The notes: generated by a model from the sequence alone, not told the origin. A stretch of DNA of 64,000 nt from an uncultured Acidimicrobiaceae bacterium (GCA_963841155.1 CAWJBM010000002.1:349885-413884); one strand, 5' to 3'. Shown: positions 44,141-64,000, numbered from the stretch's first letter. A program made the numbers and translations.

Positions 44141-44218
44141 CTGTCCCCAACCGCCATGAAGAAGTCAGGTCCGGTGCATGAGATCGCTCGAACATTGACT
44201 CGATCTGGGCTTTTGCGG

Positions 44219-44859: not shown

Positions 44860-44914
44860 GTTCCTTCAGAAGCTTCCAAACTCAGAAGGAGGACCTACAC
44901 CCGTGGCATAACGA

Positions 44915-45680: not shown

Positions 45681-45753
45681 GTCGAAGCCTCCTGGCTTAC
45701 CTGCAACCACGAACGGCGAGGTGCGTCCGGGCGTGCCGTCCGTGAGTCGCGAC

Positions 45754-46809: not shown

Positions 46810-46996
46810 GATCCCTCCACACTCTCTCAGCGGATGCTACTGAGCCACCAGCTCAAGAGCGGGGATCCTTCGGTGGGCGAACACGGCGCTGACAGCGACG
46901 GCGACCGCTCCTCGACGCCGACCTCCACACAGGGCAGACTGAGGCCGACCGCCGGACAACCGCCGGAGCGCAACGAGACCAGAAGGGGGTTTCTCA

Positions 46997-47752
46997 ATGA
47001 AGGCCGACGTAAAGGGATCCACGCTACCGGTGCTCGAGTTGATCCTCGATCCCGGCGAAGCTGTCGTCTCGACCCATGGCGATCTCGCCTGGATGTCCGC
47101 GAACATGCAGCTCAGTCAAACCATGAACACAGGTGGCGGTGGCGGGCTCATGGCGGGTCTGAAGCGTGTCGCCGGCGGGACCGGGATCTTCCTGACTCGC
47201 TACGAGCCCACCGGCGGCCCGGGAATGTTGGTTCTCGCCGCAAAGCTTCCCGGGCGGATCTTCCCCGTCGAAATCGCGCCGGGATCGGAGTACATCGTCC
47301 ACCGCCATGGTTGGCTGTGCGGCACGCCAGGTGTCCAGCCGACGATCGCGTTGCAACAAACCTTCGGCGGCGCCGTCTTCGGCGGCGAAGGTTTCATCCT
47401 CCAGCGCCTCGAGGGGCAGGGAACTGCCTGGCTCGAGCTCTCCGGGGAGATCTCGACCTACGAGCTGGCTGCAGGGCAAAGCCTCTGTGTGCATCCCGGT
47501 CACGTCGGGGCGTTCCACGCGACCGTGAGCTTCCAGACGACGCGCTTGCCCGGGATCCAGAACCGCATGTTCGGGAAGGACGGACATCACATCGTCGTGC
47601 TCACGGGCCCGGGCAGCGTCTGGCTCCAGAGCATGCCGCTGCCGATCCTCGCTCACGCGCTCGCGCCTTACCTCGGCGACCACAACGAGAGCGCGGCGGG
47701 AGCCGGCGTCGCCGGCGGCGTGCTCGGAGGAATGCTCGGCCGGAAGCTCTGA
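46997..47752 (+). CDS. AIM24/TIGR00266 (DUF124) family protein
   Basis: 251-aa ORF. GSTLPVLELILDPGEAVVSTHGDLAWMS...GEGFILQRLEGQGTAWLELSGE is typical of the family. Confidence 0.8.
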   Translation: MKADVKGSTLPVLELILDPGEAVVSTHGDLAWMSANMQLSQTMNTGGGGGLMAGLKRVAGGTGIFLTRYEPTGGPGMLVLAAKLPGRIFPVEIAPGSEYIVHRHGWLCGTPGVQPTIALQQTFGGAVFGGEGFILQRLEGQGTAWLELSGEISTYELAAGQSLCVHPGHVGAFHATVSFQTTRLPGIQNRMFGKDGHHIVVLTGPGSVWLQSMPLPILAHALAPYLGDHNESAAGAGVAGGVLGGMLGRKL

Positions 47753-47762
47753 CACCCCGGCA

Positions 47763-50517: not shown

Positions 50518-50542
50518 GTTGGACCAGAACCAACCGCGTCGC

Positions 50543-50923
50543 TCAGGAAGCTGCCTCAGCTCTCGAGGGGCTCGAGTCGGACGACCCCGCCGACGGCGAA
50601 GCAGCGGGTGTACCTGGCGCGAGAGTCTTTGAAGGTGCCGAGCCATCGGTAGCCGCTTGCTTGGCCGAGTCAGCGCTCGACGGAGTGGCCGTGGCCTCGG
50701 ACCCGACGCTTGAGGCGGCAGCGGCCGGCCTCGAACTGGACCGTCCCGCTCGGCTGTCGTTCTTGTAGAAGCCACTTCCCTTGAACACGATCCCAATGTT
50801 CCCGAACACCTTCTTGAGGTCGCCGCCACAGTTGGGGCATTCGGTCAGGGCGTCGTCCTTGAACGACTGCACGACCTCGAGATGCTCTCTACATGACTTG
50901 CACGAGTACTCGTAGGTCGGCAT
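50543..50923 (-). CDS. FmdB-family zinc-ribbon regulatory protein
   Basis: MPTYEYSCKSCREHLEVVQSFKDDALTECPNCGG...KVF, then a low-complexity tail. Start at ATG 50923. Confidence 0.85.
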   Translation of the reverse strand: MPTYEYSCKSCREHLEVVQSFKDDALTECPNCGGDLKKVFGNIGIVFKGSGFYKNDSRAGRSSSRPAAAASSVGSEATATPSSADSAKQAATDGSAPSKTLAPGTPAASPSAGSSDSSPSRAEAAS

Positions 50924-51049
50924 GGATCCCTTCTGTCCTTCGCCTCGGCCAACCTCACCGTCCCGCCGACGGTCTGGCGTTGGCACTCCCGCTTCGTGAG
51001 TGCCAAGTATATCGTGGCTCTACGGCTGGACTACCCGGGGAGGAGCATC

Positions 51050-52315
51050 ATGGACCGAGACAGTGTTGAGGAACTTGTCTCCCTCGAAGCGGTTCAGCGG
51101 CTCGTGCTCAGTTCGTGCCTGCCGCTCGGCCCGATTGAGATCGGGCTCAGCGACGCACTCGGCTTCGTCCTCGCCGAGGACGTGCGAGCTCTCGAGGACC
51201 TTCCTCCGTTCGCGAACACTGCGATGGACGGTTACGCAGTGCGTGCGGACGACACAGCCGGTGCGCCCGTAGAGCTTGCGGTCATCGGCGTCCTCCCAGC
51301 CGGGGCGGCGCCCACGCAGGCCGTCGGACCTGGAACGGCGGTCCAGATCATGACGGGAGCTCCCATGCCTCCCGGTGCCGACGGGATCGCCATCGTCGAG
51401 CGGACCGAGCCGGGCTCGTCAGACTCCAAGGTTCGAATCCTCGATCAAGTCTCACCGGGCGCCTACGTCCGCCCAGCCGGCAGTGACCTGCACCGCGGTG
51501 ATCTGGCCGTCGCCGCCGGCACGGTGATCGGCCCAGCCCATATCGGCTTGCTGGCAAGCGTCGACGCGACACGGATCACGGTCCACGCACGGCCGAACGT
51601 CGGCGTCCTTTCGACCGGGGACGAGCTCGTGGGCGGCACGGTGCCGCTCGAGTTGGGGCAGATCCGGGACTCCAACCGGCAAGGTCTCCTCGCGTCCTTG
51701 CAGCGGGACGGCTTCGTCGGCATCGACCTCGGTGTTCGCCCCGACGACGAGGAGGCGATCTCGGCAGGGATTCGAGAGGGGGTCGAGCGCTGCGATGCGC
51801 TTCTCACCTCCGGTGGGGTGAGCATGGGCGAATTCGACTTCGTGAAGGTCGCCCTGGAGAGACTGGTAGCCGAGGTCGGGGGGCAGGTCCACCAATTCAA
51901 GCTCGCAATCAAGCCCGCGAAGCCGCTGTCGTTTGCCGCCGTTGCCACGCCCGGTGGACGTTCGGTCCCCGTATTCGGTCTGCCGGGCAACCCCGTCTCC
52001 TCGATGGTCAGCTATCAGGTCGTGGCTCTGCCAGCGCTGAGGAAGCTCGCGGGCCACCACTCGCCGCTCCCCCGCCGGATCCTGGCGGTCACGGCCGATG
52101 ACCTCGAGCGGCGTCCGGACGGGAAGCTACATCTGCTGCGTGTCATCGCCGCTATGGGCGCGGACGGCCACATCATCGTCCGTTCGGCGGGCGGCCAGGG
52201 GTCTCACCAGCTCGCGGCCCTGGCAGCCTCCAACGCCCTGGCGCTGGTGCCCAATGGACCCGGTGTCACCACTGGAGCTGACGTCCAAATCCTGCTTACT
52301 GGCCCGCTCGAGTAG
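51050..52315 (+). CDS. moeA: Molybdopterin molybdenumtransferase MoeA
   Basis: GGAGGAG RBS before ATG 51050. PPFANTAMDGYAV, VLSTGDEL and TSGGVSMGEFD motifs. Confidence 0.9.
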   Translation: MDRDSVEELVSLEAVQRLVLSSCLPLGPIEIGLSDALGFVLAEDVRALEDLPPFANTAMDGYAVRADDTAGAPVELAVIGVLPAGAAPTQAVGPGTAVQIMTGAPMPPGADGIAIVERTEPGSSDSKVRILDQVSPGAYVRPAGSDLHRGDLAVAAGTVIGPAHIGLLASVDATRITVHARPNVGVLSTGDELVGGTVPLELGQIRDSNRQGLLASLQRDGFVGIDLGVRPDDEEAISAGIREGVERCDALLTSGGVSMGEFDFVKVALERLVAEVGGQVHQFKLAIKPAKPLSFAAVATPGGRSVPVFGLPGNPVSSMVSYQVVALPALRKLAGHHSPLPRRILAVTADDLERRPDGKLHLLRVIAAMGADGHIIVRSAGGQGSHQLAALAASNALALVPNGPGVTTGADVQILLTGPLE

Positions 52316-52425
52316 CGTCAGGGGCAAGCGCACGGGACGCCGCGCCCAGCGCCGGGATCAGGACGTGCCCTGAGGTTGGCGGCGATCAAGGCACTCCCTC
52401 GGCTCACCACGTAGACTGCTATCCC

Positions 52426-52950
52426 ATGCCGAACCGAGGACTGACCCATGTCGACCCCCTTGGCCGGGCTCGAATGGTGGATGTCACTCCGAAGGAGGCG
52501 ACTCACCGCCGGGCGCTTGCCCGCTGCAAGGTCAGGATGCTTCCCGAGACGACGGTGAAGATTGCGAGCAATGCGATCAACAAGGGCGACGTCCTCGGCG
52601 CGGCACGGATCGCCGGAATTCAAGGGGCGAAGCGCACTGCCGACCTCATCCCGCTCTGCCACCCGTTGCTCGTCGGTTCTGTCTCCTTGAACTTCACGAT
52701 CGGAGACGACTTCGTCGAGGTCGAGACACAAGTTGAGGCCGTCGACCGGACTGGCGTCGAGATGGAAGCCCTGACAGCTTGCGCGGTCGCCGCTCTCACG
52801 ATCTATGACATGTGCAAGTCCGCCGACCGCAGCATGGTGGTGGAGGAGCTCTGTCTCTGGGAGAAGACTGGAGGCCGCTCAGGGGTGTGGCGCCGGGCAA
52901 ATGAGCCCGGGGAGGACAACATCCACCATTTGGCTGAGACCGTTGATTAG
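52426..52950 (+). CDS. moaC: Cyclic pyranopterin monophosphate synthase MoaC
   Basis: LTHVD..G.ARMVDV, KGDVLGAARIAGI, LIPLCHPL and GVEMEALTA motifs. Confidence 0.9.
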   Translation: MPNRGLTHVDPLGRARMVDVTPKEATHRRALARCKVRMLPETTVKIASNAINKGDVLGAARIAGIQGAKRTADLIPLCHPLLVGSVSLNFTIGDDFVEVETQVEAVDRTGVEMEALTACAVAALTIYDMCKSADRSMVVEELCLWEKTGGRSGVWRRANEPGEDNIHHLAETVD

Positions 52951-52983
52951 CCTTTTCAACAAAGTGAGGGTGGTCCCGGGAGC

Positions 52984-53643
52984 GTGAGGCTTGTGGTCAT
53001 AGCTGTGCTGGCAGTCATCTGGGTCGTCGCTCTGACTCCGATGATGCTACGCAAGCTCTCCGATCGCCGGTTCTCCACCTCGGTCGATTCCTTCCACCGC
53101 CAGCTCGGGGGTATGCGACGCGCGTACCCGCGACTGGCAGCAAGTGCTGCCGACCCGGAAATGGCACTTTACATGGCGCCGACGGCAGACACTGGTGTCC
53201 GAGCGTCATATGTGGCGCCTTCAAGGATGCCGCGATTTGAAGCCTCTGAAGGGCGCTCGCGACGTCCTGCGCCGCAGTCGGCACGCCGGCGCCGCGTTCT
53301 GCTGATCCTTGTCGCGACGACGCTTGGTTTCTTCTTGCTCGGCATGATCCCGGCCTTGAAGGTTCTCTGGGGCTTCTCGCTGCTGACGTTCGGTGCCGCG
53401 GCCGGTTACTTGGCACTGCTCATCCACATTCATAGGCGCGCCGTGGAACGCGAGACCAAGGTCGTCGACATCCGCGTTCGCCGCGGCGAACCGAGTGTTG
53501 GTGTGCCGGTGACTGCCACCGTTCCCGCTGCCGTCGTACCCGCTTGCCGGAACGCTCCAGAAGAGGTGGTCTGGGCCGACGACGAATGGCTCGGCTCGGC
53601 CTTCGAGTTCGACTATGACGAGATCGTGGCCGCCGGTCGCTGA
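52984..53643 (+). CDS. Hypothetical membrane protein
   Basis: 219-aa ORF with an N-terminal TM helix, SVDSFHRQL, and two central TM helices. No family recognised. Confidence 0.55.
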   Translation: MRLVVIAVLAVIWVVALTPMMLRKLSDRRFSTSVDSFHRQLGGMRRAYPRLAASAADPEMALYMAPTADTGVRASYVAPSRMPRFEASEGRSRRPAPQSARRRRVLLILVATTLGFFLLGMIPALKVLWGFSLLTFGAAAGYLALLIHIHRRAVERETKVVDIRVRRGEPSVGVPVTATVPAAVVPACRNAPEEVVWADDEWLGSAFEFDYDEIVAAGR

Positions 53644-53785
53644 CTGGTTGGCCCCCGCAAAGTCGTCGAGTCACGCGTCGCCCGTTTGCGAGTGCTTGGC
53701 GCTGCTCCGCTAACCTGAATCGTCGGCCGGACGTGGCCGGGCGCTCCAAAGGAAGCCCTTCCTCTGGTCCAGCACCGGCCGCCTC

Positions 53786-53858
53786 GGGGGTGTAGCTCAG
53801 CTGGTAGAGCGCCACGTTCGCAACGTGGAAGTCGGCGGTTCGAGTCCGCTCACCTCCA
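53786..53858 (+). tRNA. tRNA-Ala (anticodon CGC)
   Basis: GGGGGTGTAGCTCAGCTGGTAGAGCGCCACGTTCGCAACGTGGAAGTCGGCGGTTCGAGTCCGCTCACCTCCA. The anticodon loop is TTCGCAA and a G3:U70 pair is present. Confidence 0.9.
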
Positions 53859-53897
53859 CCGGCATTCCTGCACTTCAGTGGCTTGTCCTGAACATCG

Positions 53898-55178
53898 TTA
53901 GCTCTCAGTATCCTCGTTCATCGCGCGTTCATCGCGCGGAGCAGACATAAACCGGTTGCCAAGGCTATCGGCCGCGGCCTGGTCAGCTTCAGAAACAGCC
54001 TGCGCGTAAAGAGCCAGCGTCGTTCGCGGATCGGAGTGTCCCATGCGAATCTGCGTGGTCTTCAGGTCCGTGCGATCCTGCACGAGCGCCGTGGCCATCG
54101 CCCGCCGAAGGTCGTGGAAGCCCAGCTTCGGAAGCCCCGCAGCCTCGCGAGCTGGCACCCAGACGCGATTGCGCCAGTTGGAGTAGCGGAGCGGTCCTCC
54201 TTCGGGCGAAACAAACACGAGTGCGTCGGGATCGTCGCCGGATAGTCCCCTACCGCTCAAGTGAGCTGCCAACATGTCTCGCAGCGCCGGTGGCAGAGAG
54301 ATGGTTCGACGAGATGCTGCCGACTTCGGTCCATCAGATACGGGGCGGCCCCGGGAATCTCGTGTGATGGTCTCGTTGACCGACACAGAACCGTTGACCA
54401 GGTCGATCCGTCCCACACGCAGCGCCGCGACTTCGGAGAACCGCAGGCCCAGCACTGCGCCAAGGTAGACCATCGGCCGGTATCTCTGGTCCATCGCTTC
54501 TACCAGTCGAGCGAGATCGTCAGGCAAGGGCATCGACCGTTCGAGTGGCTGTACGGCCGGAAGTTTCACGTTCCGACACGGACTGCGTCCGATTCGGTCG
54601 GTCATCTCTGCGTAGGCGCACAACGACCTCAGAACGCCGTACCCGCGCCTAACTGTCCTCGGTGCCAAACGTGCGGAAAGCTGATTGACCAGCGATTGAA
54701 CGTCGGTCTGCATGATCGAGTCGATTCGACGATCACCAAGCTCAGGAAAGATGTGGGTATTGAGGTGATACTCATCGGTGGCTCGCGTGTCGTCGCGCTT
54801 TGCCGGGTTAGAAGCCATCCATTCAGCACCCAGCTCTCTTACCGTTACGCGACCGCGCCCTGGATCGAGCATTACCCCGCGGAGCCGATCAACCTCGATC
54901 GTAGAGGCATAGGCGTCTGCCTCCTTCTTGCTCGCAAACGTGCGAGTGACCACACGAGCGCCGATCCGGGTTCGGACGTCGTAACGGTTACTGACATCCG
55001 ACAGCTGCTTCCTGTAAGCGGCCGCCGCCTGACGTCCCTCGTCCGTGTTGCGGAAGGTCCTGCTGACGCGGCGATCACCATCTCGGCCGCTGACTCGATA
55101 AACGATCTGCGCCACAGCTAAGAGGCTACGTCGCGGGTGTAGAGCTTCCTGACCGGCAACCAGCCCGGGCGCACACAC
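53898..55178 (-). CDS. Tyrosine-type site-specific integrase
   Basis: Catalytic pattern LRFSE...HDLRRAMAT...GHSD...LYAQ, with an N-terminal arm-binding-like domain. The gene ends about 40 nt from the tRNA-Ala 3' end. Confidence 0.9.
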   Translation of the reverse strand: MCAPGLVAGQEALHPRRSLLAVAQIVYRVSGRDGDRRVSRTFRNTDEGRQAAAAYRKQLSDVSNRYDVRTRIGARVVTRTFASKKEADAYASTIEVDRLRGVMLDPGRGRVTVRELGAEWMASNPAKRDDTRATDEYHLNTHIFPELGDRRIDSIMQTDVQSLVNQLSARLAPRTVRRGYGVLRSLCAYAEMTDRIGRSPCRNVKLPAVQPLERSMPLPDDLARLVEAMDQRYRPMVYLGAVLGLRFSEVAALRVGRIDLVNGSVSVNETITRDSRGRPVSDGPKSAASRRTISLPPALRDMLAAHLSGRGLSGDDPDALVFVSPEGGPLRYSNWRNRVWVPAREAAGLPKLGFHDLRRAMATALVQDRTDLKTTQIRMGHSDPRTTLALYAQAVSEADQAAADSLGNRFMSAPRDERAMNEDTES

Positions 55179-55226
55179 GAGACACTACAGACCGCTTTCA
55201 CCGGGCCTCGGTGGTGGCGTGCCGCT

Positions 55227-55526
55227 TCAGGTGCTCGTCGGCGCCCCGGGGGCTGTTCCCTTCGGCCACACGGCAACCCCTCCGTTACTCCAACTAGTCA
55301 GGTAGTCCATCGGGTCGTAGCCAATCATCCGCGGCCGGTTGAGCAGGCAGTCCAGGGACTCCGGCGTGCAGACGATCTTGCCGTTGCGACCGCCCTTACG
55401 GATGATCGTGCCCAACTTGATCCACGGCCCGTCAAATGAGCTGCGCACATCCCAGACTTCGAGCGACTCGGAGCCCTGCGGGATAGGGGGCGGCGTCTCG
55501 CGCAAGCGCGGCGGGGTGTCGGTCAC
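55227..55526 (-). CDS. Hypothetical protein (island-borne)
   Basis: 99-aa ORF directly upstream of the integrase on the same strand. No family recognised. Confidence 0.4.
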   Translation of the reverse strand: MTDTPPRLRETPPPIPQGSESLEVWDVRSSFDGPWIKLGTIIRKGGRNGKIVCTPESLDCLLNRPRMIGYDPMDYLTSWSNGGVAVWPKGTAPGAPTST

Positions 55527-55750
55527 GGCGTGATCACCGTCCCGTCAGGCTTGGTGATGGTGATGTCGCCCTTGCTCCAGACGAACCTCGAATCCGGGTC
55601 GGGCTTCTCGGCGTTGTCAGCCGGAACTTCGGCGGTAGCGGCCGACAGCCGCTCCGCGCCAAGCTCAGCAGGCGTCTTAGCCTCGATTATTCGCGCGATA
55701 GCGGCATGAGGCTGCCAGTATCCGCGTAAAAGGCCTCCTCAGCTGGGAGA

Positions 55751-57169
55751 ATGGCTGTGTTCCAAAGCAGTTATCCAGCCCAGGAGGAGGCCTCCTTGAA
55801 GGTGCATCGTAGCCGTTCGGTCCGCCGGGTCGAGGTAACCACCGACGGGCGCAACCTCGTCTCGCACGCGGGCACCGCGTTGTTGTGCGAACTGGCCGAT
55901 CGCACAGGGTTGACACACGGGTTGTCCGAGGCGATGGCCGACTGCGGCATCTCGTGGAACACCCACGACCCGGGCGTCGTGCTCACTCACCTCGCCGTCG
56001 CCATCGCCGACGGGGCCGACTGCCTCAAAGACATCGACGCACTTCGCAAGCAGTCCGAGCTGTTCGGAGAGGTCGCGTCGATCTCGACCGCGTGGAGGGC
56101 GGTGAAGGCCACGGCGTCGCTCGAGCTGCGCCAGATCCCAAGGGCCGTGGCAAAGTCACGGGAGATCGTCTGGGCCGCAGCGCCACCAGGCGACATCACG
56201 ATCGACTTCGACGCCACGCTTGTCACTGCGTTCTCCGACAAGCAGGACGCCGCACCGACCTACAAGCACGGTTATGGCTTTTACCCACTCGGCGCCTGGT
56301 GCGACACGACCGTAGAGCCGCTCGGGGCGATGCTCCGTCCGGGTAACGCCGGCTCGAACGACGCCGACGATCACCTCGAGTTGTTGGACCAGGTGATCGG
56401 TGCCCTCCCGCCGGAGTACCAGGTAGGTCACCAGCCCGGCGACGACCCGGGCCTTCTCCGACACCACATCCTTGTGAGGGCCGACTCGGCCGGGGCGACC
56501 CATGACTTTGTCTCTGGCCTTGTGGAGGCCAACATCGAGTACTCGATCGGCCACCCTGTCGACGCAGGCGTACGAGAGGCCTTGTTGTTGTTCCAAGAAG
56601 AGGACTGGGTCGAAGCGCTCGAGGCGGACGGGACCGACCGGGACGGAGCATGGGTGGCCGAGCTCACAGATCTCATGGACTTGTCCACCTGGGGTGAGGA
56701 CGCACGGCTCATCTGCCGGCGAGAACGCCCTCACCCCGGGGCCCAGCTCAGCTTGTTCGACACCTCGGAGGGTTTCCGGCACACGTGTTTCATCACGAAC
56801 GCGAGTGCCCTCGAGATCGACGCCGCGGCACTCGAGCTTCGCCACCGCGGCCATGCCCGCGTCGAGGACAGGGTCCGGTGCTGGAAGGACTGCGGGTTAC
56901 AGAACCTGCCGTTCGCGAGCTTCACCCAGAACCTTGCCTGGGTGGCCACCAGTCTCATCGCCGGGGCGCTTATCGCCTGGGCGCAGATGACCTTCCTCGA
57001 CGGCGAGCTCGCAAAGGCCGAGCCGAAGACGATCCGCTACCGGCTGTTGCACGTCGCCGCCGTCCTCGTGCGCCGTGGGCACCGGCTCATCTTGCGCCTG
57101 GACGAGACATGGCCGTGGGCAGCACCGCTCAGGCGAGCATTCCTGAAGTTGCGGACCGCGTTCCCCTGA
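55751..57169 (+). mobile_element. IS1380-family transposase (element ends not defined)
   Basis: 472-aa ORF. DGRNLVSHAGTALL, DFDATLV...KQDAAPTYKHGYGFYPL, RADSAG and LELRHRGHARVEDRVRCWKDCGL match my recollection of IS1380-type DDE transposases. Confidence 0.85.
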
Positions 57170-57413
57170 CGAACAGGGTCCCGGCGCCCGACCCGGCAAC
57201 GGTGAGTCTCCCGAGGGCGTGACATCCGACAAGAGCACGAAACTCTGACTCGTCGCGCCCTGCCACGACCGGGCGCCCTCACTGTCACCCCATCGTCACG
57301 ACTCGACCGCTCGCCGTCAGCTTCCCGAGGCAAGATGAATTCTCGAGGCTAACCAGCGACCCAAGAACTACGAAGCTGGAAACGCCCTGGCTTTCTGTTA
57401 CAAGAGCGAGCGC

Positions 57414-57959
57414 TTGCCACGCGACGACCAACTGCTCTCGAATCTCGACCGGCTGATCACGATCATCGGCCACGTTGAGGACTCCGGCCTGAAGTTCGAT
57501 CCGGAACTCGAGCCGCTTCATCTGCTTTTCAAATGGAACGTCTCTCGAGAGCCCAACACCATTGGCCGCCACAAGCAGATCGCCGACGAGAATGGGTCGG
57601 TGTGGTGGGGACGGTTCGGCACTACTGCCTCCCCGGGCATGGGAGCTGGACACCTTGCTGATCTCCGTCATCAGCTTGAGGACGAAGTCCCGACCTACGC
57701 CTTCTTGTACCGACGTGGTGAGATCTGGCGAACGACCCTTCTTGAGATCAGCAACGACGCGAGCGATGTTGATTCCGAACGGCTCCCGACCTACTACCGC
57801 GCTGACGAGTGCAATCTGTTCGCGGGCTCTCTGATTTCGTTCCGCTACCGGGCGACTGGGCGGACAGCCACCTTGTGCCAGCCGCAAATGGAGATCCGGA
57901 GAAACTTGAGGGAAGCCTGTCGACCAGACGACTCCACTGTTTGTTTACGAGCGGTTTGA
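57414..57959 (+). CDS. Uncharacterised N-terminal module of McrB (probable DNA-modification reader), out of frame with the AAA+ core
   Basis: 181-codon ORF (TTG start) that ends 22 nt before the mcrB core. A protein-like reading path crosses three frames between 57810 and 57990. Confidence 0.5.
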   Translation: MPRDDQLLSNLDRLITIIGHVEDSGLKFDPELEPLHLLFKWNVSREPNTIGRHKQIADENGSVWWGRFGTTASPGMGAGHLADLRHQLEDEVPTYAFLYRRGEIWRTTLLEISNDASDVDSERLPTYYRADECNLFAGSLISFRYRATGRTATLCQPQMEIRRNLREACRPDDSTVCLRAV

Positions 57960-57981
57960 TCCCGGTGCGCCCGAGGTTCCT

Positions 57982-58869
57982 GTGCAGTATCCGCCTCCAA
58001 GGCACCAAGAGGTGGTCTCTCTTACTCCCGAGCCGCCGCCGCTGACGATCGACTGGCTATGCGATCGGACAGGTTGGAGTAAGGAACGGCTGGAAGAGCT
58101 GATCTGTTCGCTTCAAGACGCGAGTCCTCAGATCATTCTGGCTGGGCCACCAGGGACTGGGAAGACGTCGATCGCGATGTGCCTTGCTCGCTACCTCACA
58201 GACGATCGGTCGCTCGCACGCCAGCTGGTCCAATTTCATCCGAGTTACGGCTACGAAGAATTCGTGGAAGGGCTCCGTCCTGTTGTGGAGCACGGCGGAG
58301 TCCAGTTCAAGCGAGTCGATGGCGTCATCAAGAAGATGGCAGAGGAGATCGCGAAGTCTGGTGAACCACGAGTGCTGGTGATCGACGAGATGAACCGTGC
58401 GAACCTGCCCCGAGTTTTCGGAGAGCTGATGCTCCTGCTCGAGTACCGCGACGAGCCCATCGACTTGATGTACTCGTCCGACTTCTCACTTCCGCCGAAC
58501 CTGATGATCATCGGCACTATGAATACCGCTGATCGCAGCATCCGGAGCCTTGATGTGGCGCTCAGGAGGCGATTCGATGTTTTCGAGTGTCCGCCGGACG
58601 CGTCAATCCTCGAGTGGTACTTCGGGACGCACGTCAACGAGATCCCTGGCTTGATCGAGGGCTTCGAACAGCTGAATGCTGACCTGGCGGAGCAATTGGA
58701 CCGCCACCACCTCGTCGGACACAGCTTTTTCATGGAGGACCCGTTCAACGCTCAAGTCCTGCGACGGGTCTGGGAGCGGCAGATCTTCCCCTTGCTCGAG
58801 GAGTACTTCTTCGATCAGCCGGACCTCGCGTCAGGCTTCAGCCTGGAGAAGTACTGGCCCCAGACGTGA
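57982..58869 (+). CDS. mcrB: McrB-type AAA+ GTPase (5-methylcytosine-specific restriction subunit B core)
   Basis: GPPGTGKT, LVIDEMNRA, GTMNTADRS and VALRRRF motifs. Confidence 0.9.
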   Translation: MQYPPPRHQEVVSLTPEPPPLTIDWLCDRTGWSKERLEELICSLQDASPQIILAGPPGTGKTSIAMCLARYLTDDRSLARQLVQFHPSYGYEEFVEGLRPVVEHGGVQFKRVDGVIKKMAEEIAKSGEPRVLVIDEMNRANLPRVFGELMLLLEYRDEPIDLMYSSDFSLPPNLMIIGTMNTADRSIRSLDVALRRRFDVFECPPDASILEWYFGTHVNEIPGLIEGFEQLNADLAEQLDRHHLVGHSFFMEDPFNAQVLRRVWERQIFPLLEEYFFDQPDLASGFSLEKYWPQT

Positions 58870-60122
58870 CGATGCGAACCAAGTTCCTGACTGAGTCGCA
58901 TACGGCCGAGATGGAGCTGAGCGCGCTTGAGGCCCGTGCCCTTGAGCTTGCCGGCAAGCGGCTTGCGTCGACCAAGACTTGGTGGGGATCCGACGAGGCC
59001 CCGGCCGGCGACGACCGAACCGTCATCCGCTGCAAGCCACGTGGTCCCGGCCGCTACGCGGTGTCGGTCCGGGACGCCGTTGGAGTTGTAGCCGTCGGTG
59101 ATCTCCAGATCATCGTTCAGCCAAAGATTGCCTCGGAACATCTCTTTTACCTGCTAGCGGCATCGAAGGAGATACCTCGACTGGATAAGGGAGCCGCCGA
59201 ACTCGCCTCAAGCGCAAACCTGTGGGATCTGGTCGCGCTCTGGTTCGTCGATGCCCTCGAAGGAGTGATTCGCCGCGACCTCATTCGCGACTATCGCGAG
59301 GAGACGGCACAACTGAGTGCGGTACGAGGACGGGTCGTGCCCCTCGCCACCGCTCGGGCCTTCTACGGCGGGAGTCTTAAGCCAACCTGTGTCTATGAGG
59401 AGTTCGACAACGACAACTCCCTGAACCGAGTCTTGAAGGCGGCCGCGGCGTCGGTCGCCCGCAGCAGGCTGCTAGAGGCAGGTCTGCGCAGGCGAGCGGT
59501 TGGAACGCTCGCGCAGATGGCTGATGTCACCGATCTGCGGGTCGGCGACCTGGAAGTCTCTCCTGATCTGCGGACTGCCTATTACCGAGACGCTTGGAAG
59601 CTGGCGCGCCAGGTGCTAGCGGGTCAAGGCATCGAGATGCTCTCGGGCGAGATGCTTGCGTGGACCTTCTTGATCCGGACGCCAGATCTTGTTGAAGAGG
59701 ACATTCGAAACTTGCTGCAAGAGGCTCTTCGTCCCGCTTGGCATCTTGAGAAGGAGGGACGCCAACTCATCGGAGCCCCGATCACACTCAACCCAGACCT
59801 TGTCTTCGAGCACGGCCGGCTAGTCGGGGACGTCAAGTACAAGCTCTTGAGTGCCTGGAACCAGAGCGACCTCTACCAGGCGATTGCATTCGCCACCGGC
59901 TATCGGGCCTCCGGCGCGCTTGTCATCTCCTTCTTGACTGACCCCCAGCAGACCAAACTGCCAGACCTGATCGTCGGCAACCTCCCGGTGACGCCTCTTA
60001 CCTGGATGGCTTCGGGTGAGGTCACTCCTCAGCAAGCCTGCGGCACGCTCGTAGAGCAGGTCGAGCGGTGGTTGGAGACACGGCTCGGTACCGAGAGTGC
60101 GCTTCACCAGATCATTGCCTAG
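58866..60122 (+). CDS. mcrC: McrC-type nuclease subunit
   Basis: GTG 58866 overlaps the mcrB stop (GTGA). The C-terminal PD-(D/E)xK-like motif NPDLVFEHGRLVGDVKYK is present. 418 aa. Confidence 0.85.
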   Translation: MTMRTKFLTESHTAEMELSALEARALELAGKRLASTKTWWGSDEAPAGDDRTVIRCKPRGPGRYAVSVRDAVGVVAVGDLQIIVQPKIASEHLFYLLAASKEIPRLDKGAAELASSANLWDLVALWFVDALEGVIRRDLIRDYREETAQLSAVRGRVVPLATARAFYGGSLKPTCVYEEFDNDNSLNRVLKAAAASVARSRLLEAGLRRRAVGTLAQMADVTDLRVGDLEVSPDLRTAYYRDAWKLARQVLAGQGIEMLSGEMLAWTFLIRTPDLVEEDIRNLLQEALRPAWHLEKEGRQLIGAPITLNPDLVFEHGRLVGDVKYKLLSAWNQSDLYQAIAFATGYRASGALVISFLTDPQQTKLPDLIVGNLPVTPLTWMASGEVTPQQACGTLVEQVERWLETRLGTESALHQIIA

Positions 60123-60199
60123 GCGCCGTTGGGACGAGTCAGATCAACGAGGAGGAGGGCCACCTCCCGTACGACGATGTCGATGCCCTTGAGCGTCCA

Positions 60200-60553
60200 T
60201 CATTGTTTGAGAGGGTTCCCCCGAGAGCGCTCGATGGAGTAGCGGCCCGCGTTCGACTCCATCTTCGCGACCAGCGCATCGCTGAGCGACACGCCGAGCA
60301 CGTCCGCCAGGCGCAGAAGATAGCCAAAAACATCGGCCAGCTCTTCTTCGATGTGCTTCCGTGTGGCTGAATCAGCCACGGCAGCCGCGCACTGATCGGG
60401 CTCGAGCCACTGGAAGATCTCCGCTAGTTCCCCCAGCTCGCCCGTCAGCGCCATGACCAGGTTCTTTGGTGTGTGGTACCGCTCCCACTGCCGATCTGCA
60501 GCGAACTTCCTCAGGGCTTCGGTCAACTCGAGAATCGACCGTTCCTCACTCAT
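60200..60553 (-). CDS. Small MazG-like nucleotide pyrophosphohydrolase
   Basis: 117 codons from ATG 60553. FAADRQWERYHTPKNLVMALTGELGELAEIFQW and EEELADVFGYLLRLAD are all-alpha NTP-PPase (MazG-like) motifs. Confidence 0.85.
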   Translation of the reverse strand: MSEERSILELTEALRKFAADRQWERYHTPKNLVMALTGELGELAEIFQWLEPDQCAAAVADSATRKHIEEELADVFGYLLRLADVLGVSLSDALVAKMESNAGRYSIERSRGNPLKQ

Positions 60554-60677
60554 GGGGACATTCTGTGTTCGGGTCGGTGGGACGCACAAGCGAGTTTGCC
60601 GACTGGACGTCGCTCAGGCGCAAGGCGGCGGCCGATCATCACGGTTCGAATCCGTGCTTTCGACCCCAGAGTTCGCC

Positions 60678-61433
60678 ATGCTTGGAAGAGTGCGGCGACG
60701 AAAGAGGAAGCGTGCTTCGCGACCGTGGCTGTTCCGAGAGGCCCGGCAGAAGCGCTCCGCTGCCTGGCACAGAACATGGCGCTTCATGGCTGTGGCACTT
60801 CTCGTCGTTGTGCTGTGCTGCGCCGTTTACGGCGTCATCTGGTGGCGGCAACAGTTCGACGTGGGTTTCTTCGTCGGTTGCCTTGGAACGCTTTTCGTCG
60901 GAGGCAGCGTTTTCGTCTTCTTGATCGCAGAGGGCTCCCTCTTGGCCCGTCTGGCGCGACTGCACGAACAGTGGGCGTGCAACGTGATCGAGACCAATGA
61001 GGGCGTCTACGCGACCGTGAGGAACATCGAGTTTGACGGCTTCGATGTCGACTGCGTTGTCATCGCTCAGGCAGGAGTGTTCGCGTTCGAGGTGAAGTCG
61101 ATGCTCGGGGTGAGGCCAGCGAACCAACTTATCCCGTCAATGGAGGCTCACTACGCCGAGCAAGCTCGCTGCGCCGCCAAGAAGACCCGACTCTTGCTCA
61201 AGAGCAAGGATATTCAGATCGACGTCCAGCCTGCGGTGATATTGATCGGACCTGGTGTACCCGAGTCTCTGCCCTCCTACCGCAAGGATGCTGACGGTGT
61301 GAGATGGGTCACGGTGCGCAACTGTGACAAGTGGCTCCCCAGGCTGCGCAACGGGGATCTGGGAGCTGATTGCGCGGATCTCTGTGAAACAGCCCTCCAG
61401 GATTACGTGGTCGCCTACCGCCCTGACGAATAA
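60678..61433 (+). CDS. NERD-domain membrane protein
   Basis: ATG 60678. Arg/Lys-rich N-terminus, two TM helices, then FDGFDVDCVVIAQAGVFAFEVKS (NERD signature D..vi...gvf.iE.K). Confidence 0.75.
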   Translation: MLGRVRRRKRKRASRPWLFREARQKRSAAWHRTWRFMAVALLVVVLCCAVYGVIWWRQQFDVGFFVGCLGTLFVGGSVFVFLIAEGSLLARLARLHEQWACNVIETNEGVYATVRNIEFDGFDVDCVVIAQAGVFAFEVKSMLGVRPANQLIPSMEAHYAEQARCAAKKTRLLLKSKDIQIDVQPAVILIGPGVPESLPSYRKDADGVRWVTVRNCDKWLPRLRNGDLGADCADLCETALQDYVVAYRPDE

Positions 61434-61538
61434 GCGATCCGAGTTGTCTTCTTTAGCTGGGAAGCTCTAGAACTCATTCTGGCTGGTCGGACCGACAAAG
61501 ATGCTCGCCAGTTCGCCGAAGACGACGTCGAGGTCAGC

Positions 61539-61546
61539 AGCAATGT
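61539..61546. repeat. Left copy of the 8-bp target-site duplication AGCAATGT
   Basis: Read directly from the sequence, immediately before the left IR. Confidence 0.9.
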
Positions 61547-62983
61547 GGCTCTTCTCAATGAACTGGGGCGCGTGAACAACTGACCGCGCTCCGATAGGTA
61601 TCCACCGGCGCGGCCAGGGGCCCCGCCATTCTCGTGGTTGTTCGACGACCGAGAGAACTGGAGGACCCCTGACAATGGGCGACGGTACCGAATTCGATGA
61701 CGCGCTGTTGGGACTGCGCGGGTTCCGGGTGGTGGCGGTGACCGAAGACGGCGATGAGCTGCTCGTCGGCGTCGAGACGATCCGCCGGGCGGCCGGGTGT
61801 CCGAGCTGTGGCGTGATCGCCAGAACCAAGGACCGCCTCCGGGTGATCATCAGAGACCTGCCGGCCTTCGACCGGCGCGTGCGCCTCGTGTGGTCCAAGC
61901 GACGGTTCTCTTGCCCGGAGCCGGACTGCCCGGTCCAGACCTGGACCGAACACTGCGACGAGCTCCCCGACCGCCGCGTGCTGTCCGCGCGTGCGGGACG
62001 TGAGTGCACGCGAGCGGTTGGCGAAGAAGCGCGTTCAGTCGCCTCGCTCGCACGTTGGCTCGGTGTCTCCTGGGCGACGGTGATGACGGCCGTGCGCGAC
62101 TACGGGACACCGCTTGTGGACGACCCGGGCCGGGTCGAGGAGGTGAGCTCGCTCGGCATCGACGAGACGGCGTTTCTGAAGGCGAACGCCGAGCACCCGA
62201 CGATGTACGTCACCGGTCTTGTCGACCTCGAGCAACGAGTGCTCATCGACATGATCGAGGGAAACCGGGCGATCGACGTCTCGCGTTGGCTCTCGAGCAA
62301 GGACGAGGCCTTCCTGGCCGGCATTACGACCGTCGCCTGCGACCTGCACGAGGGCTACCGGTCCGGGCTGCACCCGCATCTCGACCATGCCCGCCAGGTG
62401 GCCGATCCGTTCCACGTGGTGGCAGCCGAGAACCGCTGCGTCGATGAGGTGCGCCGCAGGGTGCAAAACGAGCTGTTGGGACATCGCGGTCGAAAGGATG
62501 ACCCGCTCTACAAGATCCGCCGGGTGCTGCTCACCGGTTCGGAGCGCCTCAACCAGACAGGCGTAGACCGCATGGCTCTTGGTCTTCGTCTCGGCGATCC
62601 CGACGACGAAGTCCTCGGAGCGTGGCTCGCCAAGGAGTACCTGCGCGACGTCTATCTCACCGCTGATCCGAACGAGGCCGCAGTGCTCTTGGACCGGGTG
62701 ATCGCAGGTTGCCTCGCGGATGAGGTCGATGAGATCGTCTCTCTCGGCAACACCTTGAAGCACTGGCGCACCCAGATCCTCGCTCACCATCTCACCGGCG
62801 CTTCGAACGGGCCGACCGAGGCGATGAACCTGCTCGTCAAGAAGATCAGGCGTTGCGGGCACGGCTTCAAGAGTTTTGGGAACTACCGCCTACGCGTCCT
62901 TTTGCACTGCGGTGGGATCCAATGGAAGGCTCATCCGGCTACGACAATGCGGGCTCGCTCACCCCAGTTGGTCGCGTAGAGCC
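61547..62983 (+). mobile_element. ISL3-family insertion sequence (complete, 1437 bp)
   Basis: Terminal inverted repeats GGCTCTTCTCAATGAACTGGGGCGCG (61547-) and the reverse complement of 62952-62983, GGCTCTACGCGACCAACTGGGGTGAG, match at 22 of 31 positions by eye. They are flanked by an identical 8-bp direct repeat, AGCAATGT. Confidence 0.9.
61675..62979 (+). CDS. ISL3-family transposase
   Basis: 434-aa ORF with an N-terminal zinc finger (CPSCG...CPEPDC), plus GIDETAF, DLHEGYR and NGPTEAMN motifs. Confidence 0.9.
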   Translation: MGDGTEFDDALLGLRGFRVVAVTEDGDELLVGVETIRRAAGCPSCGVIARTKDRLRVIIRDLPAFDRRVRLVWSKRRFSCPEPDCPVQTWTEHCDELPDRRVLSARAGRECTRAVGEEARSVASLARWLGVSWATVMTAVRDYGTPLVDDPGRVEEVSSLGIDETAFLKANAEHPTMYVTGLVDLEQRVLIDMIEGNRAIDVSRWLSSKDEAFLAGITTVACDLHEGYRSGLHPHLDHARQVADPFHVVAAENRCVDEVRRRVQNELLGHRGRKDDPLYKIRRVLLTGSERLNQTGVDRMALGLRLGDPDDEVLGAWLAKEYLRDVYLTADPNEAAVLLDRVIAGCLADEVDEIVSLGNTLKHWRTQILAHHLTGASNGPTEAMNLLVKKIRRCGHGFKSFGNYRLRVLLHCGGIQWKAHPATTMRARSPQLVA

Positions 62984-62991
62984 AGCAATGT
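62984..62991. repeat. Right copy of the 8-bp target-site duplication AGCAATGT
   Basis: Read directly from the sequence, immediately after the right IR. Confidence 0.9.
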
Positions 62992-63298
62992 CCATCGCCT
63001 GGACGAGGTAGCTCCGTTGTTCAGGCGTCAGGGCAGGCGCCGTGCCGTCGCTCATCTGTTCGAGCGCGCCGAGCAGGGCACGAAGCAAGTCGACCGTGCT
63101 GGCGTGAAGCTCGAGGCGAAGGAGCGGGTCGTCGATGACCCAGAGTACGCCCCAACGAGTCTCGTGGCCTGCTGCGCCCACTCAATTCTCCGAGCGCTAG
63201 CCGTGTTGACCTCGCTTCACGCTGCTGAGTTGGTGATTGCCACTCTGTGGGTAGACCGCTGCGGCTTGTGCGCACTTCGGGCTGAAGAGACTGTAGAC

Positions 63299-64000
63299 CT
63301 ACCTTGCCAGTAGTCCCCGCAGTCGGTCCCGCATGATGGCCCGTCGCTTCTTGAAGAAGGTAAGCACGTCCGCTGTAATACCGGGTGGAAGATCTTGTAG
63401 GTCATGAAAGCGGAGGTATTCCTCGCGCTTCACTGCTGGGTGAATGGAATGAGCATAGACTAGAGGGTGCTTCTTCGATTTCTCTAGGTTTAGCTCTCCA
63501 CGTAAGAGTTGAAGATTGGGGAGTTGATCACGCTGAATGAAGATGACGGCTATCTGCTCACCATTGAGTCCCGCCCGACGAAGGCGAGCCTCTGTCAACA
63601 GCCCGCGCGGAAAGACGTGATCCTGATGGTATTGCTCGGTCAGGTCTACGCCCGGGTAGAGGAGAGACAAGAGGAGCATCGCGGGTCGGTGGCCCCAACG
63701 TGTGTCCAAGAGGACCTCGATCTCCTCGTCAGAGAACGTGAGCGGCTTCTTCGAGCGGCTGAGCACATTGTCAATGTCCTCAAGGGGAAACCCTTTACCC
63801 TCGTTCTCCTGAAAGATCCTTCTAATCTCCGTTAGAATGCCGTCGACTGCACCCGTCCAAAACGATCCCTTCAGCAGGGACCTGATCACGAAGCTACGCA
63901 CACGCTCACGATCGCTATAGTGAGCATGTAGTCCGACGTAGTTCTCCCGCAGCTGTCGGGACCTGATGTAGTACGCGACCGGAATGATGACGTTCTCCGC
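63299..64000 (-). CDS. DUF1524 (GmrSD-type HNH-like) C-terminal part of a DUF262/DUF1524-family protein; 5' end lies beyond the window
   Basis: The frame stays open to the window edge (AENVIIPVAYYIRSRQLRENY...). YHQDHVFPRG...NLQLLRGELNLEKSKK fits the DUF1524 H..(H/D)..P ... N..L....N..K pattern. G+C is low (31/60 at 63421). Confidence 0.7.
   Translation of the reverse strand, partial: AENVIIPVAYYIRSRQLRENYVGLHAHYSDRERVRSFVIRSLLKGSFWTGAVDGILTEIRRIFQENEGKGFPLEDIDNVLSRSKKPLTFSDEEIEVLLDTRWGHRPAMLLLSLLYPGVDLTEQYHQDHVFPRGLLTEARLRRAGLNGEQIAVIFIQRDQLPNLQLLRGELNLEKSKKHPLVYAHSIHPAVKREEYLRFHDLQDLPPGITADVLTFFKKRRAIMRDRLRGLLAR

What the first reader, a model, noticed from the sequence alone, without database searches (positions are those of the whole stretch)
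53786..64000. tRNA-Ala-anchored, lower-GC integrative island stacked with anti-foreign-DNA genes
A tyrosine integrase (53898-55178, minus strand) ends about 40 nt after the 3' end of tRNA-Ala(CGC). This is the classic layout of an element integrated into a tRNA gene. The following 9 kb carries two unrelated IS elements (IS1380- and ISL3-family), a McrBC system, a MazG-like/NERD pair and a DUF1524 (GmrSD-type) gene. That amounts to at least two type IV restriction-style modules plus unassigned genes packed together. G+C counted by eye in single 60-nt lines falls from 41/60 (line 12001, core) to 35/60 (58441) and 31/60 (63421). The distal border of the island is outside the window.
Basis: partly seen in the sequence, partly recalled or inferred. 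Interest (0 to 1): 0.7.

Follow-up and report, generated by a model that had tools for sequence, protein, structure and literature searches.

The report
tRNA-Ala integrated, decaying phage-defence island
This is an ordinary 14.2-kb mobile island that a tyrosine integrase inserted into the 3' half of a tRNA-Ala gene of an Acidimicrobiales bacterium, and its anti-phage genes are already partly broken by two insertion sequences and by frameshifts.

Summary

The island reading is also confirmed. A near-identical public contig (L018, 99.98%) extends the window by 6.5 kb. It carries a 43-bp exact direct repeat of tRNA positions 32-74, 14,236 bp downstream of the copy in the tRNA (attR, about 4.1 kb past the window end). 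Another strain (L001, 99.9% identical on both flanks) lacks the whole island precisely between these repeats. A third variant has the same integrase with different cargo. G+C is 0.62 in the island against 0.672±0.022 in the core.

One correction is needed: the cargo is eroding. mcrB has lost its 5' end at the IS1380 junction, and two 1-nt frameshifts separate its PUA-like reader from the GTPase domain. In L018 the GmrSD gene also carries a frameshift.

This is a new member of a well-known kind, of modest interest.

In passing: the DNA abutting attR is a ~3-kb transposon with a Tn5-fold transposase that has no Pfam match. Its family sits directly after the 3' ends of five different tRNA species.

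The parts
53786..53860 (+). tRNA-Ala(CGC), the integration target. Its 3' part is rebuilt by the island (attL).
   Evidence: ARAGORN; Rfam RF00005 at 69.2 bits. Homology with the empty-site contig L001 stops exactly at 53860.
53817..53859 (+). attL core: the 43-bp exact direct repeat (tRNA positions 32-74, from the anticodon loop to the 3' end). The second copy (attR) lies at window-equivalent 68053-68095, outside the window.
   Evidence: two exact copies in L018, 14,236 bp apart. No other copy in the window.
53898..55178 (-). Tyrosine integrase, 426 aa as the longest ORF (the true start may be later). Apparently intact: GLRFSE, PKSAAS, HDLR, GHS and LALY read by eye as the R-K-HxxR-H-Y set.
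   Evidence: Pfam and PHROGs. PDB integrase 3nkh at 1.6e-11. Best annotated relative is the Micromonospora pMLP1 intM (30.6% identity, 2e-36). Sequence.
55227..55526 (-). 99-aa ORF of unknown function next to int, in the position of an excisionase or regulator. Unproven.
   Evidence: No hit in Pfam, PADLOC, PHROGs or NCBIfam. Called as a gene in L002, L006 and L018.
55677..57352 (+). IS1380-family insertion sequence, 1,676 bp. Transposase at 55751-57169. 16-nt terminal inverted repeats, no target duplication. Its right end abuts the truncated mcrB.
   Evidence: Pfam DDE_Tnp_1_4 at 4.6e-62. Inverted repeats 55677-55692 / 57337-57352. Flanks. Short-read contigs break inside it.
57353..57824 (+). 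5'-truncated PUA-like reader domain of the former mcrB gene. Called ORF 57414-57959; its last ~44 codons are out of frame.
   Evidence: Pfam Pua-like at 1.6e-6. 258 representatives hit, all through query residues ~1-137, mostly inside 450-1000-aa proteins. tblastn of the fused homolog P0138 residues 10-167 starts at the IS boundary.
57827..57928 (+). Linker remnant of mcrB, readable only in a third frame, between the two 1-nt frameshifts (about 57825 and about 57920).
   Evidence: P0138 residues 169-202 align here at 68% identity in frame 1. Three-frame reading. The 638 nt from 57353 to 57990 are identical in four other assemblies.
57982..58869 (+). McrB AAA+ GTPase module left as a 295-aa ORF without a DNA-reading domain. 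GAGG lies 6 nt upstream of the GTG. Walker A is GPPGTGKT and the signature is MNTADRS.
   Evidence: AAA_5 at 7e-21. NCBIfam McrB at 1.1e-39, model positions 195-445 only. P0138 residues 197-505 at 57% identity.
58866..60122 (+). McrC, 416-418 aa, intact. A PD...DVK nuclease motif near the C-terminus was read by eye.
   Evidence: Pfam McrBC at 6.6e-33, profile positions 3-310 of 318. NCBIfam McrC at 1.3e-17. Called as 416 aa in L017-L023.
60200..60553 (-). MazG-like nucleotide pyrophosphohydrolase, 117 aa.
   Evidence: Pfam MazG-like at 3.7e-11. PHROG pyrophosphatase. The exact 117-aa product is on record in 8 contigs.
60678..61433 (+). NERD-domain protein (251 or 215 aa) with two N-terminal hydrophobic helices, divergent from MazG-like.
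   Evidence: Pfam NERD at 1.7e-5. The exact product is on record. The pair is conserved at 84% nucleotide identity in L016 and is also present in L030-32, but MazG is absent beside the 45-50% homologs.
61547..62983 (+). ISL3-family insertion sequence, 1,437 bp. Transposase at 61675-62979. A simple insertion with an 8-bp target duplication AGCAATGT (61539-61546 and 62984-62991).
   Evidence: Pfam DDE_Tnp_ISL3 at 3.2e-48. 30-nt inverted repeats. Flanks. Homology to L016 resumes at 62989.
63299..64000 (-). C-terminal 233 codons of a BrxU/GmrSD-type (PADLOC HEC-05) type IV restriction gene, cut by the window end. In L018 the gene runs to window-equivalent 65015.
   Evidence: PADLOC HEC-05 at 6.4e-55. 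Motif DHVFP. L018 gives an N part (DGQQR, profile positions 20-260) and a C part (277-593), separated by a +1 frameshift.

Best explanation
The region from 53861 to the window end is the proximal 10.1 kb of a 14.2-kb integrative genomic island in an Acidimicrobiales chromosome.

**How it integrated.** A tyrosine integrase encoded at the island's edge recombined an island-borne attP with the 3' 43-44 bp of tRNA-Ala(CGC), from the anticodon loop to the acceptor end. This rebuilt the tRNA at attL and left a partial tRNA copy at attR, about 4.1 kb beyond the window.

**What it carries.** The cargo is a small defence island:
- a McrBC-type system whose McrB once had a PUA-like reader of modified DNA;
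- a BrxU/GmrSD-type enzyme;
- a MazG-like/NERD gene pair;
- outside the window, a 124-aa ORF and a TY-Chap3-domain protein.

**Its present state.** After arrival the island was hit by an IS1380-family and an ISL3-family element and is decaying. mcrB lost its 5' end at the IS1380 junction, and two 1-nt deletions disconnect reader and GTPase. The GmrSD gene is frameshifted in the sister contig.

**Shown and inferred.**
- Shown: gene content, the att repeats, the empty site, the composition and the lesions.
- Inferred: the integrase mechanism, with crossover in the anticodon-loop region as described for tRNA-targeting integrases (from memory: Williams 2002). Also inferred are the anti-phage roles and the loss of McrBC function.
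For: - Gene identities.
- Extension contig: L018 is 99.978% identical to the window over 13,801 bp, with three substitutions and no indels.
- att repeat: 43-bp exact repeat, copies 14,236 bp apart.
- Empty site: L001 matches the window to exactly 53860 and matches L018 from attR onward at 99.9%.
- Same integrase with other cargo in L003-5.
- G+C 0.62 against 0.672+-0.022; GC3.
- mcrB lesions: the PUA-like domain is normally internal to 450-1000-aa proteins. The fused homolog P0138 aligns in three successive frames, and the alignment starts at the IS boundary. The sequence is identical in four other assemblies.
- ISL3 has an 8-bp target duplication.
- HEC-05 carries a +1 frameshift in L018, whereas relatives encode an intact 571-aa protein.
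- HEC-05 corresponds to BrxU, a tested defence against modified-DNA phages (bioRxiv 10.1101/2024.01.29.577857).
Against: - attR, the HEC-05 frameshift and the last two genes come from L018, not from the window's own contig.
- No circular or attP junction was found; identical integrases were seen only in the integrated state.
- No recognisable excisionase was found. The 99-aa ORF has no hits.
- IS1380 has no target duplication, so the size of the loss at its junction is unknown.
- A 295-aa McrB ORF with its own Shine-Dalgarno-like GAGG and an intact McrC remain, so residual activity is not excluded.
- The GC shift is modest. Four core 1-kb windows are also below 0.64.
Confidence: 0.9

Rival explanations
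1. The McrBC module is not dead but works as a three-part variant. A free PUA-like reader protein, a short McrB GTPase and McrC would be expressed from an outward-reading promoter of the IS1380 element.
For: - The frame is open from the IS boundary through the PUA-like domain.
- The 295-aa McrB ORF has a GAGG 6 nt before its GTG.
- McrC is intact.
- Homolog P0137 (251 aa) ends just after the linker, so free reader proteins may exist.
- L016 encodes a separate MrcB_N protein next to an AAA_5/McrC-like pair.
- From memory: some IS1380-family elements such as ISEcp1 drive neighbouring genes.
Against: - Most homologs carry the domain inside long proteins (450-1000 aa), with about 340 residues following it in many of them.
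- The 34-codon linker that is 68% identical to P0138 is readable only in a frame that neither ORF uses.
- The N-terminus is missing, and no start codon lies across the IS.
- From memory: E. coli McrB-S, which lacks the N-domain, does not bind DNA.
- No sequence variation among strains is available to test selection.
Confidence: 0.1
2. The island is a degraded prophage, phage satellite or integrative conjugative/mobilisable element rather than a simple integrase-plus-cargo island.
For: The integrase belongs to the phage-integrase family. Its nearest annotated relatives are integrases of actinobacteriophages and of pMLP1.
Against: In the 14.2 kb, only the integrase and the MazG-like protein hit PHROGs. 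There are no capsid, terminase, replication, relaxase or conjugation genes. The element is too small for these.
Confidence: 0.05
3. The presence/absence polymorphism reflects deletion of an ancestral chromosomal segment by homologous recombination between fortuitous repeats, not site-specific integration.
For: Direction cannot be read from two states alone. No attP form was seen.
Against: - The repeat is exactly the anticodon-loop-to-3'-end segment of the tRNA.
- It lies next to an intact integrase in the usual orientation.
- The segment has deviant G+C.
- The same integrase carries other cargo at the same tRNA in L003-5.
Confidence: 0.03

Closest known systems
tRNA-integrated genomic islands and integrative elements with a tyrosine integrase (P4-type islands; actinomycete elements such as Micromonospora pMLP1 and pSAM2-type AICEs)
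   Same: - The integrase gene sits directly beside the tRNA 3' end.
- The att core equals the 3' part of the tRNA, and the tRNA is regenerated.
- A partial tRNA copy marks the far end.
- An empty site exists in a sister strain.
- G+C is lower than in the chromosome.
- The pMLP1 integrase is the best annotated relative (30.6% identity).
   Different: - There are no replication or transfer genes.
- The cargo is only defence genes and IS elements.
- The host is an uncultured Acidimicrobiales lineage.
- Excision was not shown.
E. coli McrBC (type IV, modification-dependent restriction)
   Same: An AAA+ GTPase with McrB motifs and a McrC partner, with overlapping genes.
   Different: In this copy it is cut off from the GTPase by two frameshifts and truncated at an IS junction.
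BrxU / GmrSD (PADLOC HEC-05)
   Same: Full-length match to the HEC-05 profile, with DGQQR in the DUF262 part and DHVFP (BrxU: DHIYP) in the DUF1524 part.
   Different: It is not embedded in BREX or Hma. In L018 it is split by a +1 frameshift. Only the C-terminal 233 codons lie in the window.
Defence islands carried on integrative mobile elements at chromosomal hotspots
   Same: Several unrelated defence genes are packed behind one integrase. The cargo at one hotspot varies among near-identical strains.
   Different: Small (14 kb) and visibly eroding. Related, larger versions with intact genes exist elsewhere (L016, L030-32).

Membership tests
tRNA-integrated genomic island (tyrosine-integrase element) | Integrase gene adjacent to the 3' end of a tRNA gene | tested here: met
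   a 37-nt gap, with the two genes convergent.
tRNA-integrated genomic island (tyrosine-integrase element) | Direct repeat of the tRNA 3' segment at the distal border (attL/attR) | tested here: met
   A 43-bp exact repeat, copies 14,236 bp apart, in L018, which is 99.978% identical to the window. It is not in the window itself.
tRNA-integrated genomic island (tyrosine-integrase element) | Unoccupied site in a close relative | tested here: met
   L001 is 99.95% and 99.88% identical on the two flanks and lacks the island exactly between the repeats.
tRNA-integrated genomic island (tyrosine-integrase element) | Composition deviating from the chromosome | tested here: met
   0.620 against 0.672 (sd 0.022); cargo 0.58-0.60. 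GC3 is lower. The shift is modest.
tRNA-integrated genomic island (tyrosine-integrase element) | Excision or a circular attP form | tested here: inconclusive
   Only integrated contexts of the identical integrase are on record. Needs reads or PCR.
McrBC type IV restriction system | McrB: N-terminal DNA-reading domain fused to the AAA+ GTPase | tested here: not met
   Reader and GTPase lie in different frames, with the linker in a third. The 5' end is lost at the IS1380 junction.
McrBC type IV restriction system | AAA+ GTPase module with McrB signature | tested here: met
   AAA_5 at 7e-21 and NCBIfam McrB at 1e-39. Motifs were read by eye.
McrBC type IV restriction system | McrC nuclease partner | tested here: met
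   Pfam McrBC at 6.6e-33. The catalytic motif was read by eye only.
GmrSD / BrxU (HEC-05) | DUF1524 His-Me nuclease motif (D-H-x-x-P) | tested here: met
   DHVFP in the window ORF. PADLOC HEC-05 at 6.4e-55. Pfam DUF1524 itself gave no hit.
GmrSD / BrxU (HEC-05) | DUF262 NTPase domain with DGQQR, in one polypeptide with DUF1524 | tested here: inconclusive
   DGQQR is present in L018, but the gene is split by a +1 frameshift there. This part lies outside the window.
ISL3 family insertion sequence | ISL3 DDE transposase, terminal inverted repeats, 8-bp target duplication | tested here: met
   The 8-bp duplication as a family trait is from memory.
IS1380 family insertion sequence | DDE_Tnp_1_4 transposase, short terminal inverted repeats, short target duplication | tested here: inconclusive
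   Transposase and 16-nt inverted repeats were found. No target duplication was found.
MazG-like + NERD as a two-gene defence system | Conserved pairing across distant homologs | tested here: not met
   The pairing is seen only in relatives at 83-87% identity (L016, L030-32). NERD homologs at 45-50% lack a MazG neighbour. No PADLOC model matches.

The most novel reading that the evidence does not exclude
The tRNA-Ala(CGC) 3' end may be a double landing pad. Besides the integrase island, the DNA abutting attR is a ~3.05-kb transposon (L001 11438-14483, directly after the tRNA in the empty-site strain).

- Its 502-aa transposase has a Tn5-like fold and an IS4-type Y-x2-R-x3-E-x6-K motif, but matches no Pfam or PDB sequence.
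- The family has more than 6,400 protein clusters.
- Elements of this family have conserved ends that lie 1-20 nt after the 3' ends of five different tRNA species.

This would be an undescribed family of tRNA-flank-specific DDE transposons.

A lesser option within the island itself is that the MazG-like/membrane-NERD pair is a new defence module.
Probability: 0.35. Interest if true: 0.55.

Novelty: new member of a known kind. Interest (0 to 1): 0.3.

Why it matters
The island itself is a textbook case, and its value is mainly as a clean worked example. In an uncultured Acidimicrobiales population the same tRNA-Ala site occurs empty, filled with this island, or filled with another cargo behind the same integrase. 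Defence genes on the island are being inactivated by IS elements and frameshifts. This fits the view that defence systems turn over quickly on mobile elements.

Annotation pipelines would count McrBC and GmrSD here as active systems, and at least the first is not intact.

The neighbouring tRNA-flank transposon family could matter more for mobile-element biology, if it is new.

Tried and rejected
1. Exact look-up of the 418-aa McrC found nothing. Gene callers use the ATG two codons later, giving 416 aa.
2. The HEC-05 fragment search gave no identical protein, so the window could not be extended that way. Its best hit, P0001, led to a related island, L016.
3. L001 was at first doubted as an empty site, because homologs of its first gene sit beside various tRNAs. 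This was resolved when L018 showed the island inserted between the tRNA and that gene.
4. L017 diverges from the window after the ISL3 element. Its ISL3 copy is 13.6% different from 97 nt inside the element onward. This is probably a join through another ISL3 copy, so it was not used as evidence.
5. pN/pS between strains could not be computed, because the cargo is 100% identical.
6. No tRNA direct repeats were found around the tRNA-flank transposons, so they are not integrase-type islands.
7. hhalign of the 502-aa family against the IS1380 transposase, and PDB sequence searches, were negative. Only the fold search worked.
8. The MazG/NERD pairing is not conserved at a distance.
9. The Rfam scan found only the tRNA. 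The promoter and terminator scan was not above chance.
10. Integrase contexts gave no attP junction.
11. Literature searches for a MazG+NERD system, DUF6788 or tRNA-flank IS elements found nothing relevant.

Full report
**1. Observation**

- tRNA-Ala(CGC) lies at 53786-53860.
- A 426-aa tyrosine integrase ORF on the minus strand (53898-55178) ends 37 nt after the tRNA. The catalytic residues can be read in its sequence (by eye).
- Downstream lie an IS1380-type transposase (55751-57169), a McrB-type AAA+ ORF (57982-58869) and McrC (58866-60122).
- Next come a MazG-like gene (minus strand, 60200-60553 with the likely ATG), a NERD protein (60678-61433 with the start on record) and an ISL3 transposase (61675-62979).
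- Last is a minus-strand ORF running off the window (63302-64000). It matches the PADLOC HEC-05 profile at 6.4e-55 and carries DHVFP.
- HEC-05 is the BrxU/GmrSD-like family (10.1101/2024.01.29.577857).

Computed properly, the core (1-53785) has G+C 0.672, with 1-kb windows showing sd 0.022 and a minimum of 0.618. The island part has 0.620. The non-IS cargo has 0.58-0.60, while both IS elements are host-like at about 0.655. GC3 is 0.65-0.75 for island genes, against 0.77±0.045 for nine neighbouring core genes.

**2. Is it an island?**

Looking up the adjacent MoaC protein returned six near-identical metagenomic contigs. BLAST against the window sorted them into three groups.

- L002 and L006 carry the same integrase and break inside the IS1380 element.
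- L003-L005 are 98% identical up to 55148, inside the integrase 5' end. They then carry different genes, a 65-aa ORF and an HTH_17 protein.
- L001 is 99.95% identical up to exactly 53860, the last tRNA base, and is unrelated afterwards.

Looking up the MazG-like protein returned L018, a stretch of a 166-kb contig. It is 99.978% identical to window 50200-64000, with three substitutions and no indels. It extends 6,553 bp beyond the window.

In L018 the sequence TTCGCAACGTGGAAGTCGGCGGTTCGAGTCCGCTCACCTCCAC occurs twice, 14,236 bp apart. This sequence is tRNA positions 32-74, from the first base of the anticodon loop to the 3' end. One copy lies in the tRNA (window 53817-53859). The other lies at window-equivalent 68053-68095. 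From that second copy onward, L018 is 99.88% identical to the DNA that directly follows the tRNA in L001.

L001 is therefore the unoccupied site, and the island is bounded by attL and attR.

The host is an uncultured Acidimicrobiales lineage, judging from the record titles of related loci.

**3. Complete gene map (window plus L018)**

In order: attL/tRNA, int, a 99-aa ORF, the IS1380 element (55677-57352), the PUA-like/mcrB remnants, mcrC, MazG-like, NERD, the ISL3 element (61547-62983), the HEC-05 gene (63299 to about 65015), a 124-aa ORF, a 551-aa protein with a TY-Chap3 domain, about 480 bp, and attR.

No phage structural, replication, relaxase or conjugation genes are present.

- The ISL3 element has 30-nt imperfect inverted repeats and a perfect 8-bp target duplication AGCAATGT, so it is a simple insertion.
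- The IS1380 element has 16-nt inverted repeats but no target duplication.

**4. State of the defence genes**

*mcrB.* The 181-aa 'PUA-like' ORF (57414-57959) was searched against 1.8 billion representative proteins. It gave 258 hits, and all matched query residues ~1-137 only. Most hits are proteins of 450-1000 aa, many of them with about 340 residues following the domain.

The closest fused homolog, P0138 (508 aa, PUA-like plus McrB GTPase), aligns to the window in three consecutive frames:

- residues 10-167 at 57351-57824;
- residues 169-202 at 57827-57928 (68% identity);
- residues 197-505 at 57910-58863.

Reading the three frames shows two 1-nt losses, near TTCGCGGGC (about 57825) and near CTGTCGACCAG (about 57920). 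The homology starts exactly at the IS1380 right end. The DNA on the other side of the IS contains no start codon or matching N-terminus.

So mcrB has lost its 5' end at the IS1380 junction, and two frameshifts disconnect its reader from its GTPase. The same 638 nt are found unchanged in four other assemblies, from NCBI, ENA and two Logan runs. The lesions are therefore unlikely to be consensus errors.

A 295-aa GTPase ORF with a GAGG upstream of its GTG remains, as does an intact mcrC. Residual function is possible but unlikely (inference).

*HEC-05.* In L018 the gene is split at ...AACCGCGGC-A-GGCACC..., a +1 insertion that is not in a homopolymer. Related islands encode an intact 571-aa protein. 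Whether the window's own genome shares this lesion is unknown.

*Intact genes.* The integrase, mcrC, MazG-like, NERD, the 124-aa ORF and the TY-Chap3 protein appear intact.

**5. MazG-like/NERD**

The divergent pair recurs with HEC-05 and a TY-Chap3 protein in L016 and L030-L032. L016 shares the pair at 84% nucleotide identity with the window, and the NERD proteins of L030-32 are 83-87% identical to the window's. These loci are larger islands that also hold HIT, a 348-aa gene, PemK, Vsr/Dcm and an Mrr-helicase.

More distant NERD homologs (45-50% identity) have no MazG neighbour, and no PADLOC model matches either protein. I therefore treat them as co-resident cargo, not as a demonstrated system.

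**6. Mechanism**

- Shown: integrase next to the tRNA, a 43-bp core, a regenerated tRNA, and the empty site.
- Inferred: site-specific recombination between attP and the tRNA 3' half, with crossover in the anticodon-loop region, as described for tRNA-targeting integrase subfamilies (Williams 2002, from memory).
- Not shown: excision. Identical integrases are on record only in the integrated context.

The nearest annotated integrase is intM of the Micromonospora element pMLP1 (30.6% identity).

**7. Comparison and novelty**

This is a new member of a very well-known kind: a tRNA-integrated, integrase-borne defence island. Three points are mildly notable.

- Three occupancy states of one att site coexist in near-identical strains.
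- The cargo is visibly decaying.
- The McrB reader is a PUA-like domain.

Interest is modest, at 0.3.

**8. Noticed in passing**

The gene abutting attR (L001 11580-13058; the 502-aa P0016) has no Pfam, PADLOC, PHROGs, NCBIfam or PDB sequence match. Yet it has more than 6,400 homolog clusters of about 500 aa, all listed as 'hypothetical'.

- Invariant residues include D143, D242 and Y410-x2-R413-x3-E417-x6-K424.
- An AlphaFold model (pLDDT 81) matches the Tn5 transposase (prob 0.99, TM about 0.4) and the P-element transposase.
- With a 297-aa ORF and a DUF6788 ORF, it lies between 24-nt imperfect inverted repeats (L001 11438-14483).
- The element end carries TCTTCACRTTTG twice. In six loci it lies 1-20 nt after the 3' end of tRNA-Ala(CGC), Arg(CCT), Gly(TCC), Gly(GCC) or Val(CAC). 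The far end (GAGGTCTTCACGTTTG) is conserved about 3.0-3.2 kb away.
- No tRNA direct repeats accompany these elements.

This looks like a tRNA-flank-specific DDE transposon family. I could not check it against ISfinder, and literature searches found nothing.

Noticed in passing
L001 11438-14483 (= L018 1-2457; begins about 4.1 kb past the window end, directly after attR): A ~3.05-kb transposon-like element with three ORFs: a 502-aa protein with a Tn5-like fold and an IS4-type YREK motif but no Pfam or PDB sequence hit, a 297-aa ORF and a DUF6788 ORF. It has 24-nt inverted repeats. The family has more than 6,400 clusters. In six loci its end, carrying TCTTCACRTTTG twice, lies 1-20 nt after the 3' ends of five different tRNA species.
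   Followed up: partly
L003, L004, L005 (window-equivalent 42426-55148, then divergent): Near-identical strains carry the same integrase (98% nucleotide identity up to its 5' end) at the same tRNA-Ala, followed by different genes: a 65-aa ORF and an HTH_17/excisionase-like 88-aa ORF. Their contigs end soon after.
   Followed up: partly
L017 4400-10208 (window-equivalent 61547 onward): This contig is identical to the window up to 97 nt inside the ISL3 element. It then has a 13.6%-diverged ISL3 copy and an unrelated right flank (87-, 262- and 161-aa ORFs, GntR, ABC ATPase). This could be a chimeric assembly or an ISL3-mediated rearrangement.
   Followed up: partly
L016 1-20603; L030 1-12533: Larger related defence islands share the MazG-like/NERD pair, HEC-05 (intact, 571 aa, in L030-32) and a TY-Chap3 protein. 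They also hold HIT, a 348-aa gene, PemK toxin, Vsr plus a Dcm-type methylase and an Mrr_cat-helicase. L016 additionally has an AAA_5/McrC-like pair with a separately encoded MrcB_N protein.
   Followed up: partly
L014 about 11463-11500: The transposon end is preceded by TCCACC, which resembles a tRNA 3' end, although no tRNA is detected in the locus. This may be another attR-like partial tRNA left by an island, as in L018.
   Followed up: no
L018 about 2452-2458 compared with L001 11436-11441: The six bases between the att core and the transposon end differ: GCCGAG in L018 and CCGGAG in L001. The flanks are otherwise 99.9% identical.
   Followed up: no
window 39001-41000 and 44001-45000: Core 1-kb windows with G+C of 0.618-0.630, as low as parts of the island. 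The second lies beside tRNA-Lys(TTT) at 44217-44291 on the minus strand. No integrase was called there in the related contigs.
   Followed up: no
window 52984-53643 and 60453-61433: Both ORFs give weak sub-threshold Pfam FA_desaturase hits (4e-4 and 3e-3). In the NERD ORF the hit (residues 97-158) falls on the hydrophobic N-terminal helices seen in its translation. The cause in 52984-53643, which related contigs list as GlpR (faint), was not examined. Both hits are probably spurious.
   Followed up: no
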